NCBI RefSeq assembly: GCF_009914755.1
Contig: NC_060929.1
Source of the DNA: the human T2T-CHM13v2.0 reference genome, Homo sapiens
DNA length: 64,000 bases
Strand: one strand, 5' to 3'
Shown here in pieces: positions 3,609 to 64,000 of this stretch (position 1 is the first letter of the stretch; every line of letters begins with the position of its first letter). A model generated the notes under the pieces. The model saw nothing but the letters and a program-made list of their open reading frames with translations. It was not told the DNA's origin and ran no database searches. The translations under genes and the position numbers were made by a program.

Positions 3609-3624
3609 TATATGTATGTTGAAA

Positions 3625-3840
3625 TTATATATATAATATATAAATATGTATATTATATATATAAGATATATAGAATATATTATATATAAGATATATAGAA
3701 TATATTCTATATATAAGATATATAGAATATATTATATATAAGATATATAGAATATATTCTATATATCTTATATATAGAATATATTCTATATATCTTATAT
3801 ATAATATATTATATATTTTATATATTATATATATATATTT
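3625..3840. repeat. AT-rich ~26-28-bp minisatellite with an orientation switch (palindromic)
   Basis: Units ataagatatatagaatatatt(a/ct)tatat are followed by their reverse complement. Confidence 0.9.
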
Positions 3841-6800
3841 CATTACCAATGGAAATGTTATAACTGTTCCAGGGAAGTAAGTGTCGATGAAGCTTCATCA
3901 GGATTTTGAGTACAGAATTCTTTTGGCCCCATGCAGTTGACAATCGCATTACACATATTTATATGTACCTATTCATCTTATTGGAAAAACAGTTTCAGAA
4001 GGAAAGATTTCTCTATTGGATAAGTATAGTACTAAGGAAACTAATCACTTAGAAAATTGGCACTTCAACAGCTCCAAAAGTGCAAATGGAAAAAAAAAAC
4101 ATAGTTTAAAGAAGATAAACAAGACAAACAAGGGAAGGTCAAGCATTTTGTTCTTACTACTTAATGTCCCCCAGTTACCTATTTTTAACTCCTGTCAATA
4201 CGAATTGTTAGCCTTTGTATTCATAAAGTACATTTGGCTAGAAAGATGATAAATGCTATAAGAACACGTGAGAACTTTCATAAGAGCATATTCTTTTTTA
4301 AATCATTGTCATCTTGGTTCTCAGTGGGTTAGAATTCAACTCATTTCTATGGTTTTTTCTCTATCTGGGATTTAATTTTAAATTAAATTTTAATGAAGTA
4401 GTTTCCTTCTCCTCATAAATTGGAGAAAAATGAGAATGAACATTCTTCTTCTTTCCTCAGAACAGACTTCTGCTTCTACAGTACTTGAAAATACAACTAC
4501 CCTAGAGATTTGTCGCATATATTTTAGCTTGGGGCTTTCCTTTATGATCACTTACATTTACTACTTTTCCTCTTCCTCTTGGACTCTTCAGAGAAATCTG
4601 TAAAATGAGCCTTTTCATCAAAGATGAGCAGAATTTCCACTTAATCTTAAATTAATATTTTAATCCCAATTCACAAATGTTGTTTTTGCTGCATATGCAG
4701 AAATTTATCAAAAATAGATGCCTAAAATTGTTAAGTACACATTTGTTTTTGTTCTGAAAGATTATTTTATTTGTAGGCTTCTGTTGCCTAGTGGCATTCA
4801 TATTTATCCTTAAATGGAAGAAGAATATAGTATTTTGAGGGAAATAGAACACATTTTTAAACTACTGAAAAAAGCATATCATGCTAATTAATTAATTTGT
4901 TATACGTAAGCCAATAGCAAGCAGTTTAGTTCTATTAGTTTCAATTGAATTAGAGCAGATTTTAACATAAAAATGTTTAGAAATTCCAATCACTCTTACA
5001 GTTACCATAGATTTATATTTAAATATCTTTTAGCATTTGTCCTAAATTACTTGTTATTCAGTGAGCAAAGCTAATGGTTATTGCATTGGAGATTTAATAA
5101 ATAAAAGTTGAGAATATTTAATAAAATTTCATGATAATAAGCATGAGAGTACATTAATAATGAAAAAATGCAGAATGAGATTTTTCATCATAGCTGGAAG
5201 GTTAAGGAATTAATTTTACAGACTATGAAATGGAAATAGCTTCCCCACCATATTATTAACCAATGCTTAGATCAGTATAATCAACTCCTTTATTCAGAGC
5301 ATGTCTATTCTCATATTTAATGGCACTAAATAGGCATTTCCATCAGTTCAATAGGTTAATATAATTCAATAAATAATATCCAAGTAAGAAGTAGATCGCA
5401 TCATGTGATGATTCCTTGATAAGATGCCTTATTTTATTAAGCAAATACATCAACAATTCTGAAGCTAATGTAAGTATAATTTTGTTAGCTACATTTTTAC
5501 AAGTTACACAGTATATTAGCATGCTGCCACCAATACAGAATGTGACCATTGTAGTGAATGGAAAATAAGTGGGATATTTAGAAAACGATGTTTCCCAGAT
5601 AGATCTTTCCCAATAAACGATGAATTGTGATTCAAAGTGTGGATTATGTTTCTATAAAAATTAAAATATCAGTTTTTAAACATATTCAGATAACATAACC
5701 CTCCACACTGTCAAAATATATTGTTATATAGATGTCAGCATATGACAGGGAACCAATACATTTACTTCTGTTTAACAAAATGTTATACTAGTTTTTGCCC
5801 TTGGCAGCGTATGGAGCTTTCTGTCATTACAAAGTTGTCTCAGCACTGTAGAAAATATTTGCACTTTGACACATTTAAAGTCATGCTGGAGAAATGGGTG
5901 GATATGTGTGGAGCAGAGCAAAGGACTACTAAAATACCTCCTTGGTTCACCTCTGAGATTTTATTTAATTGAATACCATTGACAAAAAACAAAACAAATA
6001 AACAAAACAAAAACACAGCATCTTATTCAGAGGCCAGAGAAAAATAAATATTGAAATTAGTGTCACCTTTGTTCATTTATCTAGTTTCTCATTTCCCCAG
6101 AAAGATGTTCTTAAATTCCAGGCTGTTCTCTTTATGATGGATGTACCTAATAACAGGGGTGATGTTCAATATTATTTCTTGGAATTAGACTTAACTGCTG
6201 CTAGTCCTCATCTTCATTTGATTGCTCCTCAGATTAATTCAAAAACGGTCTTTCACAGTTTTAAAGCATCATAGGGATATGTCAGACATATGGTCTCACT
6301 CCTGATCTCAAATCTCTGTTTGTCACGGTACTTCCTATCTGTCTTCAAGGTGTGAATACACATTTATCTATTAGTGTTTGTTTTTGCAGAAGTCTCAGAC
6401 ACTTCAGCTTTCAATGAAAAGTGGACTTATATCTAACCCTACAAACACACCACATGATGTATCCACAGTCAAATAATATTATACAAAATTCTGTGAGAAT
6501 TTCTCCAATCAGAGATGATTTTTTCCCTTTGAGAGGGATAATTGACAGAAATTTTCTGATGTGCTGCATTTTAGCTTTACTGTTATGATTTTTTTTGGAC
6601 ATTGATTTTATAGTTACTAAAAATTATTTGTTAAAAATTTGGATGTTTTCTATAAGGCAGATATTATTATATTGTTCTTTAATGACATTTCTCATTTTTC
6701 CACCTAGCCTATCCTTATTTTCAGCCTTTCAAGAATGGTAATGAATATAATATAAGTACACAGTAAATCTTCATTGTAGGTACTATACTAAACTGCTTGC

Positions 6801-11489: not shown

Positions 11490-12790
11490 CATTTTATTCA
11501 ACATTGGGCAAGTATTTGCAGCATGCCAACAAGGTATGAGACAACAATCTGGGCACGTGAGATACTTTAATGAATAAAATATATAAAAATTATTGTCCGG
11601 AGAGATCAAGCATTCTAGTAGAGGTAGACAGACACAAAGTTAAAGGATAAACAAATTCTATATCAGGTTGACTGGTGCTATGTGCTGTGGCAAACATTTA
11701 TTTTTAAAAATAGAGAAAGGAGAAATGGGTGTGGAGGATGGTGATTTTAAATAGACTGTTCAATGTAGTTCTCACTAAGAAAGTCACATTTAAAAGTGGT
11801 CTTGAAGGTAGTTATGAAGTTAACTTTGTGGATATCCGGGGAAAGATTATTCCAAAGAAAATAATTAGCCAGTCGAATGGAAAAAAATGCTTGCCAGTTT
11901 TGAGGAAAAACAAGGAGCCCAGAATAATCTAATTGAAATGAGTGAAAGAAATGAGAATAATTTATCAGAGAAATACCGGGAATCTGATCTGACAGGTCCT
12001 TAGAGGCCACTGTGAGGACTACGTCTCAATGCAAATGAACAATTGGTAAGTTCTGAAAAGAGAACTGAGATGTCCAAACTTAGCTAGTTAAAAAAAGAAG
12101 CATACCTGCTCTGTATTTGGTTGAAAATAGATGGCAGGAGCGGAAGCTAGTGAGAAGAAACACTTAGAAGAACACTGCAATAATCCAAGTATGGGTATTA
12201 GACCAGCATTGTAGCAGGAGATATGATGAAAAGACATTGTATATCAGTTAAATTTTGAAGGTATCACTAGTAGGATTTTCTACAGTATTAGATATGGAAG
12301 ATAACAGAATGAAATAAATGAAGATTGACTGCTTGGTTTATGGCCTGGACAATTAGAAGGATAGAGCTGACATTAACGAAGATGGGGGAAGTTGAGTAAC
12401 GACAGGAGCGAAAATTAGTAGTTAAAATTTGGACATGTTACTTTTGACATGTTTATTCAAGTAGAAATTTAGAATAGTTGGATATATGTTCGGATTATTA
12501 GATAGAGGTGAAAGTGGGAGGCATAAAATCAGAAAATTTCAATCTATATCTTAGATACAGATATAGATATAGACGTGTATAGTAACATGGAAAATTGCTA
12601 AGAATACCGAGGACCTGAATTTAACTAGAAAAGAAAAAAGCCTGGACAACTCTAAAACAGAGAGCAAGAAAAGAAGAGAAAGAACCAGTAAAGAAGACTG
12701 GGTAAAGTTAAAGAACAACCAACAGAATAAAGAATCCTGGAGGCTAATTATGATACTTGTGCCAAACTGAAAGGAATGATCAATATCCAC
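11490..12790 (-). mobile_element. L2 relic
   Basis: Typical reverse L2 3' region (ttattcaaca..., cattctagtagagg..., ttggacatgttacttttgacatg). Confidence 0.65.
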
Positions 12791-31163: not shown

Positions 31164-31289
31164 TATACAATAGTATGAAATGAAATGAATTTCATTTCAT
31201 TATAGAATAGAATGAAATGAAAATTTCATTTCATTATACAATAGAATGAAATGAAAATTTCATTTCATTATACAACAGAATGAAATGAA
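31164..31289. repeat. 34-bp tandem repeat (~3.6 copies) with a palindrome in each unit
   Basis: tatacaatagaatgaaatgaaaatttcatttcat variants at 31164, 31201, 31235 and 31269. Confidence 0.92.
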
Positions 31290-34200
31290 GGCAGAAATAA
31301 ATAAGTTATTTGAAACCTATAAGAACAAAGACACATATAACAGAATCTCTGGGACACAGCTAAAGCAGTGTTTAGAGGGAAATTTATAGCACTAAATGCC
31401 CACAGGAGAAAGTGGGAAAGAGCTAAACTTGACACCCAAACATCACAATTAAAAGAACTGGAGAAGCAAGAGCAAGCAAATTCAAAAGCTAGCAGAAGAC
31501 AAGAAATAACTAACATGAGAGCAGAGCTGAAGGAGATAGAGACACAAAAAAACCCTCAAAAAAATCAATGAATTCAGGAGTAGTTTTTTTGAAAAGATTA
31601 AGAAATAGGTGGACCACTTGCCAGACTAATAAAGAAGAAAAGAGAGAAGAATCAAATAGACACAATAAAAAATGATAAAGGGAATATCACCAGTGATCCC
31701 ACAGAAATACAAACTACCATTAGAGAATACTATAAAAACCTCTATGCATATAAACTAAAAAAACTAGAAGAAATTCATAAATTCCTGGACACATACACCC
31801 TCCAAAGACTAAACCAGGAAGAAGTTGAATCCCTGAATAGACCAATAACAAATTCTGAAATTCAGGCAGTAATTAATAACCTACCAACAAAAAAAAAGCC
31901 CAAGAACAGACGGATTCACAGCCAAATTTTACCAGAGATACATAGAGGAGCTGGTACCATTTCTTCTGAAACTATTCCAAACAATAGAAAAAGAGGGACT
32001 CTCCCCAATTCATTTTATGAGGCCAGCATCTTTCTGATAACAAAACATGTCAGAGACACAACAAAAAAAGAAAATTTCAGGCCAATAACCCTGATAAACA
32101 TTGATGTGAAAATCCTCAGTAATATACTGGCAAACTCAATCCAGCAGCAAATCAAAAAGCTTATCAACCACGATCAAGTTGGCTTCATCCCTGGGATGCA
32201 AGACTGGTTCAATATGCATAAATCAATAAAGTAAGCCATCATATAAACAGAGCCAATGACAAAAACCACATGATTATCTCAATAGATGAAGGAAAGGCCT
32301 TCAATAAACTTCAACACCCTTTCATGCTATAAACTTTCAATAAACTAGGTATGGAGGGAACGTATCTCAAAATAGTAAGAGTTATTTATGACAAACCCAC
32401 AGCCAATATCATACTGAATGGGCACAGGCTGGAAACATTCCCTTTGAAAACTGGCACAAGACAAGGATGTCCTCTCTCACCACTCCTATTCATTCAACAT
32501 AGTATTGGAAGTTCAAGCCAGGGCAATCAGGCATGAGAAAGAAATAAAGGGTATTCAAGTAGGAAGAGAGGAAGTCAAATTGTGTCTGTTTGCAGATGAC
32601 ATGATTGTATATTTAGAAAACCCCATCGTCTCAGCCCCAAATCTCCTTAACCTGATAAGCAATTTCAGCAAAATCTCAGGATATAAAATCAATGTGCAAA
32701 AATCACAAGCATTCCTATACACCAATAACAGACAAACAGAGAGCCAAATCATGAGTGAACTCCCATTCACAATCACTACAAAGAGAATAAAATACCTAGG
32801 AATAAAGCTTACAAGGGATGTGAAGTACCTCTTCAAGGAGAACTACAAATCACTGCTCAAAGAAATAAGGGAGGACACAAACAAAGGAAAAAACGTTCCA
32901 TGCTCATGGATAGGAAGAATCAGTATCGTGAAAATGGCCATACTGCTCAAAGTAATTTGTAGATTCAATGCTATCCCCATCAAGCCACCATTGACTTTCT
33001 TCACAGAATTAGAAAAAACTAGTTTAAATTTCATATGGAACCAAAAAAGAGCCCTTATAGCAAAGACAATCCTAAGCAAAAAGAACAAAGCTGGAGGCAT
33101 CACGCCACCTGACTTCAAACTACACTGCAAGTCTTCAGTAACCAAAACAGCATGTTACTGGCACCAAAACAGATATACAGACCAGTGGAACAGAACAGAG
33201 CCAGCAATAATGCCACATATCTACAGCCATCTGATCTTTGACAAACCTGACAAAAGCAAGAAATGGGGAAAGGATTCCCTATTTAATAAATGGTGTTGGG
33301 AAACCTGGCTAGCCATATGCGGAAAACTGAATCTAGATCCTTTCCTTACACATAATACAAAAATTCACTCAAGATGGACTGAAGACATAAACGTAAGACC
33401 TAAAACCATAAAAACCCTAGAAGAAAACCTAGGCAATACCATTCAGGACATAGGCATAGGCAAAGACTTCATGACTAAAACACCAAAAGCAATGACAACA
33501 AAAGCCAAAATTGATAAATGAGATCTAATTAAACTAAAGGGCTTCTGCACAGCAAAAGAAACTAGCATCAGAGTGATCAGGCAAACTATAGAATGGGAGA
33601 AAATTTTTGCAATCTATCCATCTGACAAAGAGCTAATATCCAGAATCTACAAAGAACTTAAACAAATTTACAAGAAAAAATGAACAATCCTATCAAAAGG
33701 TGAGTGAAGGATATGAACAGACACTTCTCAAAAGAAGACATTTATGCGGCCAACAAACATATGAAAAAAAGCTCATCATCACTGGTGATTAGAGAAATGC
33801 AAATCAAAACCACAATGAGACACCATCTCCATCAATTAGAATGGCAACCATCAAAAAGTGAGGAAGCAAAAGACGCTGGAGAGTATGTGGAGAAATAGGA
33901 ACACTTTTACACTGTTGGTGGGAATGTAAATTAGTTCAACCATTGTAGAAGACAGTGTGGTGATTCCTCAAGGATCTAGAACCAGAAATACCATTTGACC
34001 CAGCAATCCCACTACTGGGTATATACCCCAAGGATTATAAATCATTCTACTATAAAGACACATGCACACTTATGTTTATTGCACCACTATTCACAATAGC
34101 AAAGACTTGGACCAACCCAAATGTCCATCAATGATAGACTGTATATACACCATGGAATACTATGCAGCCATAAAAATAATGAGGTCATGTCCTTTGCCGG

Positions 34201-44911: not shown

Positions 44912-44923
44912 TATCTATCATCC

Positions 44924-44966
<43 letters not shown>
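44912..44966. repeat. (TATC)n tetranucleotide STR
   Basis: Direct reading. Confidence 0.95.
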
Positions 44967-44967
<1 letters not shown>

Positions 44968-45456
44968 GGCATTAATTATCTCTCTATATAAACTTACAAT
45001 AAAATATTTGTATACAAAGATTACTTAGTCAGTATAAATGTTACTAATTTAAACGGTTTTCTACACACAGATAGTATAGAGAAGGGGAAATACTGCCTTT
45101 ATTCTTCTTTAACAAACAGCAACTTTGTGGCATGGTAATGTCAGAAAATATGTATCACAGCCTATTATGTTGTATAACATGTAAAAGCTTTCTCTCTCTC
45201 ACACACATTCTCTTTATCTGTATCTATGTATATCTATCTATCATCTGTCTTTCCATATGTCTGGAGTGGTTGATAGAATGGTAAAACCAACTAAAGTTTA
45301 AAGAAACAGAATCACTCTATGAACTAGAGGAAACAAAGAAAAGAGGTGAATAGTATGGGCTTTTTCCTGCCCTGTAGCCTAAGGCCTGTCTTTTGAGCAC
45401 TGTAGAAAAGAGACTGGAATATTTTGACTTGCTTCAGTGTGAGAATAAGTTAACGA

Positions 45457-46014
45457 AAGTTACAGAAAGTGAAAAACGAGTTTAGTCTTCACACCTCTAT
45501 ATGAATCTGGTTTTGACAGAGTCAACTGTTTTCTTCTGCCATAGGGCGATGACAGCCACTAATTTGAGGAGCAGGGGTAAACAGTGCCCTTGACATAAAT
45601 GTTTGTGCTGTGGGGGCCACTAATAAGAGAAGTAGGGGTGATGTTTTCAGACAGTGTCATGGAATTATAAGGGGTCCATTAATTCGATGTCCAGGAATTT
45701 AAATCATGCTTTGTTAGATATAAGTTTATTTTACTGTGAAATGCAAACTCTTTAAGGGCAGAGTCCATATCTAGTTTGTTCAACACTTTATACTTAAAAC
45801 CCAGCAGAGAATCTAGTGCAAAATCCTAAGAACTAACTTTCACAGAATGCTTAATGTAGACTAGACATAGTTCTCAGCACCTGACTAGTTTTTATTACTT
45901 AATCCTCATGATACATGTGGGATGTGGGCCTTGGCGTACATAGAAGTTGCTAATGACCACAAACCCGGTATGTGATAGAGCTGGACTAGGTCAAAGTCCA
46001 TTATAAATATATTT
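45457..46014 (+). repeat. Donor copy of a 558-bp inverted duplication
   Basis: Its reverse complement aligns without gaps to 62190-62747, with 17 mismatches by hand count. Confidence 0.96.
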
Positions 46015-50329: not shown

Positions 50330-50624
50330 CGACTCCAGACATTTCAGGAACACTGGCAGTGTATAAGTCTTTTGTAAATTTTGGCTCATTGTCATTGATA
50401 TCATGTATTTTAATGATAAATTCCGATTCCGGTTCCACCTGCCGCCCAGTTTTTCTGTCTATAGCCTTGGCACGAAGAATGTACAGAGATTTTTCTTCTC
50501 TGTCTAGTTTCTTTGCAGCATGAATGTCTCCTGTATTTTCATCTATAACAAATAGACTGCCAGCCCCATCTCCTGTTAGTATGTATTTTAAATTTCCATC
50601 TCCTTTATCTTGGTCAGTGTGAAG
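50330..50624 (-). CDS. CDH9: Cadherin-9 coding exon 3 (EC1 and start of EC2; [10 protein letters not shown]...PEMSGV)
   Basis: ORF 50274..50684 has LDRE and DINDNEP cadherin motifs. Acceptor ctaaag|CTT, donor G|gtaggt; 295 nt. Protein recognised as CDH9. Confidence 0.97.
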
Positions 50625-59220: not shown

Positions 59221-61550
<2,330 letters not shown>

Positions 61551-62189
61551 GGAAGTACTTCTAAACTCATTCTGTGAAGCCAGTATTACCCTGATACCAT
61601 AGTCAGGCAAAAATACAGCCCCCCCCCCGCAAAAAAAAAAGAAACAAAGAAAGAAAATAAAACTGCAGGCCAAAATCCTTGATAAATATTGACACAAAAA
61701 TCCTCAACAAATTCTAGCAAACTGAATTCAATAACAGATTAAAAAGAATATTTATCATGTCCAAGTGGGGTTTATTCCTGGGATGCAAGGATGGTTCAGC
61801 ACATGCAACCCCAAGCAATGTGATATAGTGTATCAACAGAATAAAGGGAAAACCATGTGATTACTTATAATGATGTTGAAAAGGCATTTAATAGAATTCA
61901 ACATCCCTTCATGATAAAAACCCTAAAAACGTAGGGATAGAAAAAAACATACTTTAACACAACATGAGCCATATATGAAAGATCCCCAGCTAGTATACTG
62001 GGGAAAAAGTGAAATACTTTCCTCTAAGATTTGGAGAAGACAAGGATGCCCAAGTTCACCACTGTTATTCAACATAGCAGTGTAAGTCACAGAGCAGTTA
62101 AACAAGAGAAAGACATAAATGGCATCCAATGCGGATGCCATTATAATTAGGATAGCTTTGGCTACTCTAGGTCTTCTATATTTAGAAGG

Positions 62190-62747
62190 AAATATATTTG
62201 GAATGGACTTAGACCTAGTCCGGCTCTATCACATACCGGGTTTGTGGTCATTAGCAACTTCTATGTACCCCAAGGCCCACATCCCACATGTATCATGAGG
62301 ATAAAGTAATAAAAACCAATCAGCTACTGAGAACTATGTCTAGTCTACATTAAGCATTCTGTGAAAGTTAGTTCTTAGGATTTTGCACTAGATTCTCTGC
62401 TGGGTTTTAAGTATAAAGTGTTGAACAAACTAGATATGGACTCTGCCCTTAAAGAGTTTGCATTTCACAGTAAAATAAACTTATATCTAATAAAGCATGA
62501 TTTAAATTCCTGGACATCGAATTAATGGACCCCTTGTAATTCCATGACACTGTCTGAAAACATCACCCCTACTTCTCTTATTAGTGGCCCCCACAGCACA
62601 AACATTTATGTCAAGGGCACTGTTTACCCCTGCTCCTCAAGTTAGTGGCTGTCATCGCCTTATGGCAGGAGAAAACAGTTGACTCTGTCAAAACCAGATT
62701 CATATAGAGGTGTGAAGAATAAACTCCTTTTTCACTTTCTGTAACTT
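62190..62747 (-). repeat. Inverted 558-bp copy of 45457-46014 inserted in L1MA ORF2
   Basis: Ungapped ~97% identity; L1 sequence on both sides; no poly(A) or TSD. Confidence 0.96.
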
Positions 62748-64000
62748 AAGTTAAATTATACATATTTTTAGATGATATAATCTTCTATTTTGAAAAACCT
62801 AAAGACCCCACCAAAAAACTGTTAGAACTAATAAAACCAATTCAGTAAAATTGCAGGATACAAAATCAACATACAAAAAACAATAACATTTTTATATTCC
62901 AACAGTAAGCACTCTGAAAAAGAAATGAAGAAACTTATCCCATTTACAATAGCTACAAGTACTATAAAATACATAAGAGTTTACCTCACGAAAGAAGTGA
63001 GAGATCTCTGCAATAAAATCTATAAAACATTAATGCAAGAAAGGAGAGGATGCAATAAAATAGAAAGAATTTTATGTTCATAGTTTGGAAGGATCAATAT
63101 TGTTAAAATATCCACACTACTCAAAGCAATACACAGAGTCAATGTAATCCCAATGTAAATACCAGTGACATTCTTCTTAAGAATAGAAAAAGAATCTTAA
63201 AATTTTTATGGACTCACAGAAGACCTAGAGTAGCCAAAGTTATCCTAAGCACAAAGAACCAAACTGTAGGAATCACATTACCTGACTTCAAATTATACCA
63301 CGGAGTTATAGTAACCAGAATAGCTTCGTACTGGTGTAAAAACAGACATAGACCAATCGAACAGAATAGAGAACCCAGAAATAAATCCATACATCCGCAG
63401 AGAACTCATTTTCAATAAAAGTGCCAAGAATATATGCTGAGGAAAGGACAGCCTTTTCAATAAATAACGTTGGGAAAACTGGATAGCCATATAAAGAAGA
63501 ATGAAACTAGACTCCTATCTCTCACCATATACAAAAATTAAATCAAAATGAACTAAAAACTTAAATCTAAGATTTCAAGTTAGGAAACTACTAAAAGAAA
63601 ACATTTGATAACCTCTCCAGGATATTGGTTTGGGCAAAAATTAGTTAAGCAATACACCATAAGCACAGGCAACAAAAGCAAAAATGGATGAATGGGACTA
63701 TATCAAGTTAAAAAGCATCTGTGCAGCAAAAGAAACAATCAACAAAGCAAAGAGACAACCTAAAGAATGAGAAAAAATGCAAACTATTCATCTGACAAGG
63801 GATTAATAACTGAATATATAATGAGCTCAAACAACTCTGTAAGAAAGAAAATCTAAGTATTCGATTTAAAAATGGACAAAATATCTCAATCAACATTTTC
63901 AAAAGAATAAATGCAAATGGCAAACACGTATATGAAAATGTGTTCAACATCATTGATCATCAGAGAAATGCAAATCAAACCTACAATGACATATCATCTA

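What the first reader, a model, noticed from the sequence alone, without database searches (positions are those of the whole stretch)
62118..62753. Multi-template, fold-back insertion: 558 bp copied inverted from 16 kb away into an old L1
Seen in sequence: the L1MA ORF2 breaks after ...ggcatccaa (62129) and resumes at aagttaaatt (62748), about a dozen bases short of the recalled consensus. The breakpoint region holds five parts. (1) A fold-back: aatggcatcc 62118-62127 pairs with ggatgccatt 62133-62142. (2) 31 bp (62147-62177) that are the reverse complement of 63218-63248 in the same L1, with 1 mismatch. (3) A second hairpin, cttcta-tatt-tagaag (62173-62188). (4) 558 bp (62190-62747) that are the reverse complement of 45457-46014, with 17 substitutions and no indels by hand count. 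(5) A junction palindrome, taactt|aagtta (62742-62753). There is no poly(A) or TSD, so this is not retrotransposition. Inference: it is a fixed germline scar of break repair with repeated template switching and snap-back synthesis (MMBIR/FoSTeS or polymerase theta type). The ~3% divergence makes it much younger than the host L1, plausibly from the ape lineage.
Basis: partly seen in the sequence, partly recalled or inferred. Interest (0 to 1): 0.85.

Follow-up and report, generated by a model that had tools for sequence, protein, structure and literature searches.

The report
Old multi-template repair scar in CDH9
An ancient L1 element inside a CDH9 intron was once broken and patched with 618 bases copied backwards from three nearby places, a clear but not unprecedented example of error-prone, template-switching DNA repair fixed in our genome.

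Summary
62190-62747 is the reverse complement of 45457-46014 with 17 mismatches in 558 and no indels. The T2T genome holds only these two copies, and the donor's flanks are single-copy. Two other L1 copies in the window run straight through the break, so 13 L1 bases were replaced by 618 foreign bases. The 10-bp fold-back at the break is one of only two such hairpins outside simple repeats in 64 kb. The 31-mer and the junction palindrome are also real. There is no poly(A) and no target-site duplication.

Three caveats apply. The 31-mer is conserved L1 sequence, and one chr3 site matches it as well as the local site does. The second hairpin is at chance level. Perfect microhomology is absent at the main junctions.

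The best reading is one DNA-templated, multi-switch break or fork repair event (MMBIR or polymerase-theta-like). It dates to roughly 9-24 Myr ago if the rate is 1e-9 per site per year. No primate outgroups were available, so the date and fixation are untested. This is a new member of a known kind.

As a side effect, the two copies form the only large inverted repeat bracketing CDH9 exon 3 in the window.

The parts
61700..62129 (+). Left part of the broken old L1 (ORF2 region, heavily decayed), ending at ...GGCATCCAA
   Evidence: blastn matches two other L1 copies in the window at 67% identity. There are 8 stops in 143 codons. Pfam gives only a weak RVT_1 hit, E=0.035, below the cutoff, on 61845-61931. 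The subfamily (L1MA) was not tested.
62118..62127 (+). Left arm of the fold-back (L1 sequence, template of the snap-back)
   Evidence: Perfect 10-bp stem with 62133-62142.
62130..62132 (+). TGC, 3 bases of unassigned filler in the hairpin loop
   Evidence: Not L1, as shown by comparison with two other copies. No template was assigned; a 1-bp-primed snap-back on 62122-62124 is possible but is inference only.
62133..62142 (+). Snap-back copy: reverse complement of 62118-62127
   Evidence: It is one of 2 hairpins of this strength outside simple repeats in the window.
62143..62146 (+). ATAA filler. Together with the preceding CCATT it equals donor + strand 45998-46006, a candidate brief visit to the donor primed on 5 nt of microhomology
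   Evidence: 9-mer match. Empirical p=0.008 for one 60-nt zone, about 0.1 after correction for 12 tests. Suggestive only.
62147..62177 (+). 31-mer, reverse complement of L1 sequence 63218-63248 (1 mismatch)
   Evidence: Genome-wide, the local site is tied best with one chr3 site among 188 other places within 3 mismatches.
62178..62189 (+). ATATTTAGAAGG filler with several ambiguous AT-rich candidate templates
   Evidence: Candidates: an abortive copy of the donor start (TATATTTA); the right L1 flank at 62762-62772; or a snap-back on CTTCT. 8-mer matches have p=0.06 per zone. The 6-bp hairpin at 62173-62188 is at chance level.
62190..62747 (+). 558-bp inverted copy of 45457-46014
   Evidence: 17 mismatches in 558, ungapped. 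Only two genomic copies.
62748..63400 (+). Right part of the same L1, resuming at AAGTTAAATT. The first 12 bases match the donor's continuation at 9 of 12 positions
   Evidence: For random pairs, P(>=9 of 12)=0.0012. A palindrome is centred on the junction.
45457..46014 (-). Donor segment in CDH9 intron 3, intact and in single-copy DNA
63218..63248 (+). Most likely donor of the 31-mer, 1.04 kb downstream in the same L1
50330..50624 (-). CDH9 exon 3 (295 nt), bracketed by the two inverted copies: 11.6 kb from one and 4.3 kb from the other
   Evidence: Hub annotation table. The 570-nt pair is the only substantial one of 3 inverted pairs that straddle the exon, out of 11 pairs found in 41536-64000.

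Best explanation
A break, or a collapsed or stalled replication fork, inside an old L1 in CDH9 intron 2 was repaired in the germline of an ape or catarrhine ancestor by a polymerase that switched templates repeatedly.

Thirteen L1 bases were lost. A 3' end then made these products in turn:
1. A snap-back copy of its own last 10 bases.
2. A 31-base copy of L1 sequence from about 1 kb away.
3. A 558-base copy of unique intronic DNA from 16 kb away.

Short stretches of filler, either unassigned or from aborted synthesis, lie between these pieces. The nascent strand then rejoined the other L1 end at a 9-of-12 homeologous site.

All three templated pieces are inverted relative to their sources. One + strand 3' end copying + strand templates therefore explains all of them. 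[quoted passage not shown]

Shown: the anatomy, the copy number, the direction of transfer, and the absence of retrotransposition marks. Inferred: a single event, the order of the steps, the pathway (MMBIR/FoSTeS versus polymerase theta) and the date.
For: - Donor and copy: 558 bp with 17 mismatches and no gaps. There are exactly 2 places in the genome, from 2 first-look candidates. The donor flanks are unique apart from one 57-bp chr7 hit.
- The insert interrupts an L1 that is continuous in 2 of 2 other copies, with 13 bases lost.
- Homology stops abruptly on the left: 8 of 24 bases match beyond 62190.
- The 10-bp hairpin sits exactly at the break and is rare (2 in 64 kb outside simple repeats; fold z=-4.57).
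- The 31-mer shares three minority variants with the local L1 copy, which is tied best among 188 other genomic matches.
- The divergence of the 31-mer (1 in 31) is the same as that of the 558-mer (17 in 558), consistent with one age.
- No TSD and no poly(A).
- Right junction: 9 of 12 homeology, P=0.0012 for random pairs. A zero-loop palindrome lies exactly on the junction; such palindromes occur at 0.04-0.1% of positions.
- Published germline MMBIR-type templated insertions can copy from up to five templates and often use imperfect microhomology (PMC8421209, passages). Fold-back inverted insertions at breaks are documented (PMC11724301, abstract and passages). Polymerase theta alternates untemplated, snap-back and in-trans synthesis (PMC4912351, abstract in the listing).
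Against: - There is no perfect microhomology at the junctions into the 31-mer, into the 558-mer or back into L1, whereas most published MMBIR-type junctions have at least 1-2 bp.
- 558 bp from 16 kb away is far beyond typical polymerase-theta inserts of up to about 30 nt (PMC11724301, passage) and beyond the short-range switches catalogued in apes, whose maximum is 128 (PMC7954356, passage).
- The 31-mer's template lies on the far side of the break, which a simple fold-back of one resected end does not reach.
- A chr3 L1 matches the 31-mer equally well.
- That all parts arose in one event is not shown.
- No outgroup or population data were available.
Confidence: 0.75

Rival explanations
1. RNA-templated patch (class 2 templated sequence insertion). 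Pieces of nascent CDH9 pre-mRNA were reverse-transcribed, by L1 ORF2p acting without its endonuclease or by polymerase theta, and used to fill a double-strand break.
For: Read on the + strand, all three templated pieces have the sense of the CDH9 transcript (gene on the - strand). The 31-mer and the 558-mer lie in the order they have in the pre-mRNA. No TSD or poly(A) is present, and there is a microdeletion with filler at the junctions, as described for class 2 TSIPs (PMC5110952, abstract and passages).
Against: The same orientation is equally expected from DNA fold-back, so it does not discriminate between the two models. The 10-base piece is out of transcript order. The primer end would have two mismatched 3'-terminal bases. 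The donors are intronic and very local (0, 1 and 16 kb), which DNA proximity explains without requiring germline expression of a mainly neuronal cadherin; that expression pattern is recalled and was not tested.
Confidence: 0.12
2. Several independent events at one fragile site: a plain 558-bp insertion first, with the hairpin and the 31-mer added later or earlier by separate short-range template switches.
For: Short-range template switches are common in great-ape genomes, with thousands catalogued (PMC7954356, passages). The 10-bp stem has no mismatches, so its age is unconstrained. The second hairpin and the fillers are individually at chance level.
Against: All parts abut within 60 bases at a single L1 discontinuity, with no intervening L1 sequence. 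The divergence of the 31-mer equals that of the 558-mer. One event is more parsimonious.
Confidence: 0.1
3. The 558-bp unit is an unrecognised low-copy mobile element or repeat, or the structure is an assembly artefact.
For: The genome search scores only the best candidates and may miss copies that are much more diverged (caveat stated).
Against: Only 2 places were found in 3.1 Gb. The donor is embedded in unique DNA, with homology ending at the same points. There are no terminal repeats, TSD or poly(A). Seventeen differences between the copies exclude a chimeric-read artefact.
Confidence: 0.03

Closest known systems
MMBIR/FoSTeS-type templated insertions (MMB-TI), germline class (Osia et al. 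2021, PMC8421209)
   Same: The donor is intact and several templates are stitched into one insertion. Orientation is inverted and there is imperfect microhomology ('microhomeology') at a junction. Such events are tolerated as neutral germline variants in non-coding DNA.
   Different: One templated piece is 558 bp taken from 16 kb away, much larger and more distant than the short-read-detected events. Most junctions here carry 3-12 bases of filler rather than microhomology.
Polymerase-theta-mediated end joining with snap-back and in-trans templated inserts (PMC4912351, abstract; SD-MMEJ, PMC5728401, abstract)
   Same: A small deletion at the break, a snap-back hairpin made from the break end itself, and a mosaic of untemplated and templated short stretches. 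Possible aborted copies of the eventual template are also present.
   Different: Typical inserts reach about 30 nt and come from the immediate flanks (PMC11724301, passage). The 558-mer needs a more processive synthesis.
Class 2 templated sequence insertion polymorphisms (Onozawa and Aplan, PMC5110952)
   Same: A patch from a distant genomic region at a break, without TSD or poly(A), with a microdeletion and extra nucleotides.
   Different: Those are proposed to be RNA-derived and come from anywhere in the genome. Here the donors are all local and multi-part, and polymorphism is untested (the insert is probably fixed).
Short-range template-switch mutations of the four-point model in great apes (PMC7954356)
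   Same: A reverse-complement copy of nearby sequence replaces a few bases and creates a perfect hairpin, as the 10-bp fold-back does.
   Different: The catalogued copied fragments have a median of 12 and a maximum of 128 bases, taken from tens to hundreds of bases away. The 558-mer from 16 kb lies outside that model.
Fold-back inverted insertions at double-strand breaks in yeast (PMC11724301)
   Same: [quoted passage not shown] Complex inserts with inverted pieces are also seen there.
   Different: The yeast events run from 2 to about 150 bp and are primed on defined inverted microhomology next to the break. No such priming microhomology is visible here for the 558-mer.

Membership tests
MMBIR/FoSTeS-type templated insertion | Inserted DNA is a copy of sequence elsewhere in the genome and the donor remains intact | tested here: met
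MMBIR/FoSTeS-type templated insertion | Two or more templates joined in one insertion | tested here: met
   10-bp snap-back, 31-mer and 558-mer lie within one 618-bp insert. That they arose in a single event is inferred.
MMBIR/FoSTeS-type templated insertion | Microhomology or microhomeology at the switch points | tested here: inconclusive
   0 bp of perfect microhomology at the three main junctions. There is 9 of 12 homeology at the return junction and a candidate 5-nt CCATT switch (p=0.008 uncorrected).
MMBIR/FoSTeS-type templated insertion | Dependence on replication or BIR factors | not testable with these tools
   Needs genetics.
Polymerase-theta end joining scar | Small deletion plus short templated insert copied from the break flanks, including snap-back | tested here: met
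   13-bp loss. 10-bp snap-back on the break end.
Polymerase-theta end joining scar | Insert length typically up to about 30 nt, from nearby sequence | tested here: not met
   558 bp from 16 kb away. The size range is taken from a PMC11724301 passage.
Class 2 templated sequence insertion | No TSD, no poly(A), end-joining features at the junctions | tested here: met
Class 2 templated sequence insertion | Donor is a transcript (RNA intermediate) | tested here: inconclusive
   The pieces have CDH9 transcript sense, but DNA fold-back predicts the same orientation.
L1-mediated retrotransposition (TPRT; class 1 insertion, processed copy, twin priming) | Poly(A) tail, target-site duplication, endonuclease-type target | tested here: not met
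   The longest A run is 5. No repeat is shared at the junctions, and there is a 13-bp deletion rather than a duplication.
Interspersed repeat family | Many genomic copies with shared ends | tested here: not met
   2 places in the genome. The donor flanks are unique.
Short-range template switch (four-point model) | Reverse-complement copy taken from within tens to hundreds of bases | tested here: inconclusive
   Met for the 10-bp fold-back. Not met for the 31-mer (1.04 kb away) or the 558-mer (16 kb away).

The most novel reading that the evidence does not exclude
The repair scar gave CDH9 pre-mRNA a lineage-specific 558-nt, 97%-complementary intronic duplex that brackets exon 3. This duplex measurably changes RNA processing in neurons: back-splicing of exon 3 into a circular RNA, looping-out and skipping of this 295-nt frame-shifting exon, or formation of an A-to-I-edited long dsRNA. 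A second, bolder reading is that the patch was copied from the nascent CDH9 transcript itself, since all pieces are in transcript sense.
Probability: 0.15. Interest if true: 0.55.

Novelty: new member of a known kind. Interest (0 to 1): 0.35.

Why it matters
This is a clean example, resolved to the base, of a complex templated insertion that survived in the human germline. The host L1 supplies the pre-event sequence, so the deletion, the fillers and every junction can be read exactly. It shows that a single scar can combine polymerase-theta-like features (snap-back, filler, possible aborted starts) with a long, processive 558-bp copy of the MMBIR type. That combination bears on the open question of whether these pathways act in sequence at one break.

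It also placed the only large inverted repeat around CDH9 exon 3 in this window. That is a testable candidate for lineage-specific circular RNA, exon skipping or dsRNA formation, and for rare inversion between the arms (the longest identical tract is 164 bp).

As a class the phenomenon is already known, so the general interest is moderate.

Tried and rejected
- Earlier findings of this scan could not be consulted (closed).
- Pfam on the L1 flanks: the first request failed because of stop codons. Stop-free pieces gave only RVT_1 at E=0.035, below the cutoff, on 1 of 3 pieces. The L1 identity therefore rests on homology to two other copies in the window and on the 189 genomic matches of the 31-mer. 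The L1MA subfamily name was not tested.
- Clustering of the 17 differences is only marginal. Four statistics gave p=0.079, 0.039, 0.043 and 0.022. The post hoc split, 10 of 17 in the first 140 bp, gave p=0.003. This could reflect error-prone synthesis or later gene conversion, and I do not claim either.
- I looked for a local template-switch explanation of the two mutation clusters (62200-62222 and 62303-62326). Nothing convincing was found: one 8-mer for the first and none for the second.
- I tried to assign templates to the fillers. Several AT-rich 8-9-mers near the donor start and in the right L1 flank match, but none survives correction for 12 tests.
- The second hairpin (62173-62188) is rejected as independent evidence, because such hairpins occur at 3.8 per kb.
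- An inversion of the 16 kb between the arms is rejected, because the L1 flanks are collinear and exon 3 has the orientation of the gene (annotation).
- Literature: no paper in the library links CDH9 with this structure. Searches were 'CDH9'+'inverted duplication' (2 unrelated hits), 'CDH9'+'circRNA' (12 hits) and 'circCDH9' (7 hits). The one passage read concerns a mouse circCdh9 (PMC12830984). Supplements were not consulted.

Full report
**What is there**

- **The inverted copy.** An ungapped comparison of 62190-62747 with the reverse complement of 45457-46014 gives 17 mismatches in 558 positions. The repeat finder ranks this pair first of 22 inverted pairs in the window (570 nt, 96%).
- **Its left edge.** To the left of 62190 the similarity stops at once: 8 of 24 positions match.
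- **Its right edge.** To the right of 62747 two mismatches are followed by 9 matches in the next 10 positions, so 9 of 12 match. After that only 6 of 20 match. Random pairs of positions in the window reach 9 of 12 with frequency 0.0012.

**Is it a repeat, and which copy is derived?**

- A DNA search of the window's own assembly (3.1 Gb, 24 contigs) with the 558 bases finds 2 places from 2 first-look candidates: the query itself and the copy at 45457-46014.
- A 1.7-kb query centred on the donor finds three things: itself, the insert (over 45445-46014 only) and one unrelated 57-bp hit on contig 7. The donor therefore lies in single-copy DNA and the homology has sharp ends. The tool warns that only the best candidates are scored, so much more diverged copies are not excluded.
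- The copy at 62190 is the derived one. The sequences on its two sides match two other L1 copies in the window at 67-69% identity (32112-33221 and 60566-61497). In the alignment both of those copies run straight through the break. The broken element lacks 13 bases between ...CATCCAA (62129) and AAGTTAAA (62748). In total, 618 foreign bases (62130-62747) replace 13 L1 bases.
- The host is a decayed element: 8 stops in 143 codons and only a sub-threshold RVT_1 hit (nothing on two other pieces). The L1MA subfamily label was not tested.

**The 60-base junction mosaic (62130-62189)**

- **Fold-back.** The 10-bp stem (62118-62127 with 62133-62142, loop of 5) is perfect. It dominates the predicted fold of 62110-62200: -16.3 kcal/mol, z = -4.57, and 0 of 200 shuffles as stable. 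Outside simple-repeat zones the whole 64 kb holds only two perfect hairpins with arms of 10 or more and a loop of 8 or less. The other is at 12542.
- **31-mer.** 62147-62177 is the reverse complement of 63218-63248 with one mismatch. This stretch is conserved L1 sequence, so I searched the genome with it. There are 189 places within 3 mismatches (110 forward, 79 reverse; reversed-pattern control 0 and 0). Apart from the query itself, two places have 1 mismatch (the local one and one on contig 3) and 23 have 2 mismatches. The local copy shares the three minority variants of the insert. It differs at one position where the insert carries the family-majority base. A local origin is thus well supported by rank and by proximity, but it is not unique by sequence.
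- **Second hairpin.** The hairpin at 62173-62188 (6-bp arms) is real, but such hairpins occur at 3.8 per kb, so it carries no weight.
- **Junction palindrome.** TAACTT|AAGTTA is centred exactly on the 62747|62748 junction. Zero-loop palindromes with 6-bp arms occupy 0.04-0.1% of positions.
- **Fillers.** For ATAA and ATATTTAGAAGG there are candidate templates at the very start of the donor. CCATTATAA equals + strand 45998-46006. TATATTTA equals the inverted donor at 46011-46004. A further candidate lies in the right L1 flank. The best has p=0.008 for one zone, about 0.1 after 12 tests; the others have p=0.06. They hint at aborted visits to the eventual template but do not establish them.

**Not retrotransposition**

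The longest A run in the insert is 5. The flanks share no repeat at the junctions, only two off-junction 5-mers. The target shows a 13-bp deletion rather than a duplication.

**Age**

- 17 differences in 558 is 3.05% (Jukes-Cantor 3.11%; Poisson 95% interval 1.8-4.9%).
- At 1e-9 substitutions per site per year this is about 15.6 Myr (8.9-24). At 0.5e-9 it is twice that. The rates are recalled values, not tool results.
- The 31-mer's 1 difference in 31 is the same divergence.
- The differences are 10 transitions and 7 transversions, 3 of them in a CpG context. They are mildly clustered (p=0.02-0.08 by four statistics; 10 of 17 in the first 140 bp, post hoc p=0.003). This could reflect error-prone synthesis after the switch or later gene conversion. 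Without an outgroup I cannot tell which. A search for local templates for the clusters found nothing convincing.
- The 3% divergence rules out a chimeric assembly or a recent cell-line event.

**Mechanism**

All three templated pieces are inverted relative to their sources. A single + strand 3' end (the left break end, or a rightward leading strand) that copies + strand templates would produce all three in the observed order.

- It would copy first its own last 10 bases, then 63248 to 63218, then 46014 to 45457.
- It would rejoin the right L1 end where the donor's continuation resembles the L1 (9 of 12).
- The template 16 kb behind could be the same strand exposed by long resection, or displaced during break-induced replication.
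- The template 1 kb ahead needs the sister or homologue, or an unwound fork.

These steps are inference.

Published work describes each ingredient:

- Germline MMBIR-type templated insertions can copy from up to five templates, and many of their junctions use imperfect microhomology (PMC8421209, passages read).
- Fold-back inverted insertions occur at breaks, completed by end joining with 0-5 bp of microhomology. That paper also notes that polymerase theta alone mostly makes inserts up to about 30 nt (PMC11724301, abstract and passages).
- Polymerase theta oscillates between untemplated, snap-back and in-trans synthesis (PMC4912351, abstract in the search listing only).
- Leading-to-lagging strand switches generate inverted copies (PMC10766183, abstract in the listing only).
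- The short-range switches catalogued in great apes copy a median of 12 and at most 128 bases (PMC7954356, passages). The 558-mer is therefore outside that class.

The scar thus looks like a hybrid: a polymerase-theta-like mosaic at the left junction and a long, processive MMBIR-like copy.

Points against a textbook MMBIR call are the lack of perfect microhomology at the three main junctions and the 3-12 bases of filler.

**Rivals**

- **RNA-templated patch (class 2 templated sequence insertion; PMC5110952, abstract and passages).** It cannot be excluded. Read on the + strand, all pieces have the sense of the CDH9 transcript, and two of them are in transcript order. DNA fold-back predicts the same orientation, and the extreme locality of the donors favours DNA. 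I give it about 0.12.
- **Several separate events at one site.** About 0.1.
- **A repeat or an artefact.** About 0.03.

**Consequence worth testing**

By the hub annotation the insert lies in CDH9 intron 2 and the donor in intron 3. They sit 11.6 kb and 4.3 kb from exon 3 (50330-50624, 295 nt).

Of 11 inverted pairs found between 41536 and 64000, three straddle this exon. Only the 570-nt pair is substantial; the others are 35 and 32 nt of low complexity. Only the first 13.4 kb of intron 2 is in the window.

Long intronic duplexes flanking exons are associated with exon skipping in primates (PMC13019944, abstract in the listing only). They are also, from general knowledge, associated with back-splicing.

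I found no paper on a human CDH9 exon-3 circle or on this structure. The circCdh9 in reviews is from a mouse model (PMC12830984, passage), a species that would not carry a primate-lineage insert.

**Verdict**

This is a new, unusually legible member of a known class of germline repair scars, of moderate interest.

Noticed in passing
window 3616-3847: A dense AT-rich cluster of nested perfect palindromes, with arms up to 41 bp at 3726-3810 and many overlapping inverted pairs (I12-I21). This is a palindromic AT-rich repeat of the kind prone to hairpin or cruciform formation.
   Followed up: no
window 31175-31269: Three tandem copies of a roughly 25-base perfect palindrome built from AATGAAATGAA and its complement (31179-31201, 31211-31235, 31245-31269), inside a masked repeat.
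   Followed up: no
window 33239-34110 and 59673-60543: A pair of L1 fragments in opposite orientation, about 870 nt at 87-88% complementarity (I2, I3, I7). They lie in CDH9 introns on either side of exons 3-7 and form a second long intronic inverted repeat.
   Followed up: no
window 60508-60543 and 61515-61550: A 36-nt inverted match at 97% between the end of a minus-oriented L1 fragment and a plus-oriented L1 fragment 971 bases away (I4). It could be two adjacent L1 insertions or another small inverted copy.
   Followed up: no
window 12542-12568: The only other perfect 10-bp hairpin outside simple repeats in the window (loop of 7). Its origin is unknown.
   Followed up: no
window 62200-62201 and 62317-62326: Within the 558-bp copy there is an adjacent double substitution and four differences within 10 bases. 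No local template explains them. The cause could be synthesis errors at birth or later mutation clusters.
   Followed up: partly
window 44912-44968: A 57-bp stretch about 500 bp from the donor has a single 96% match on another chromosome (contig 7). It is probably a small old repeat fragment.
   Followed up: no
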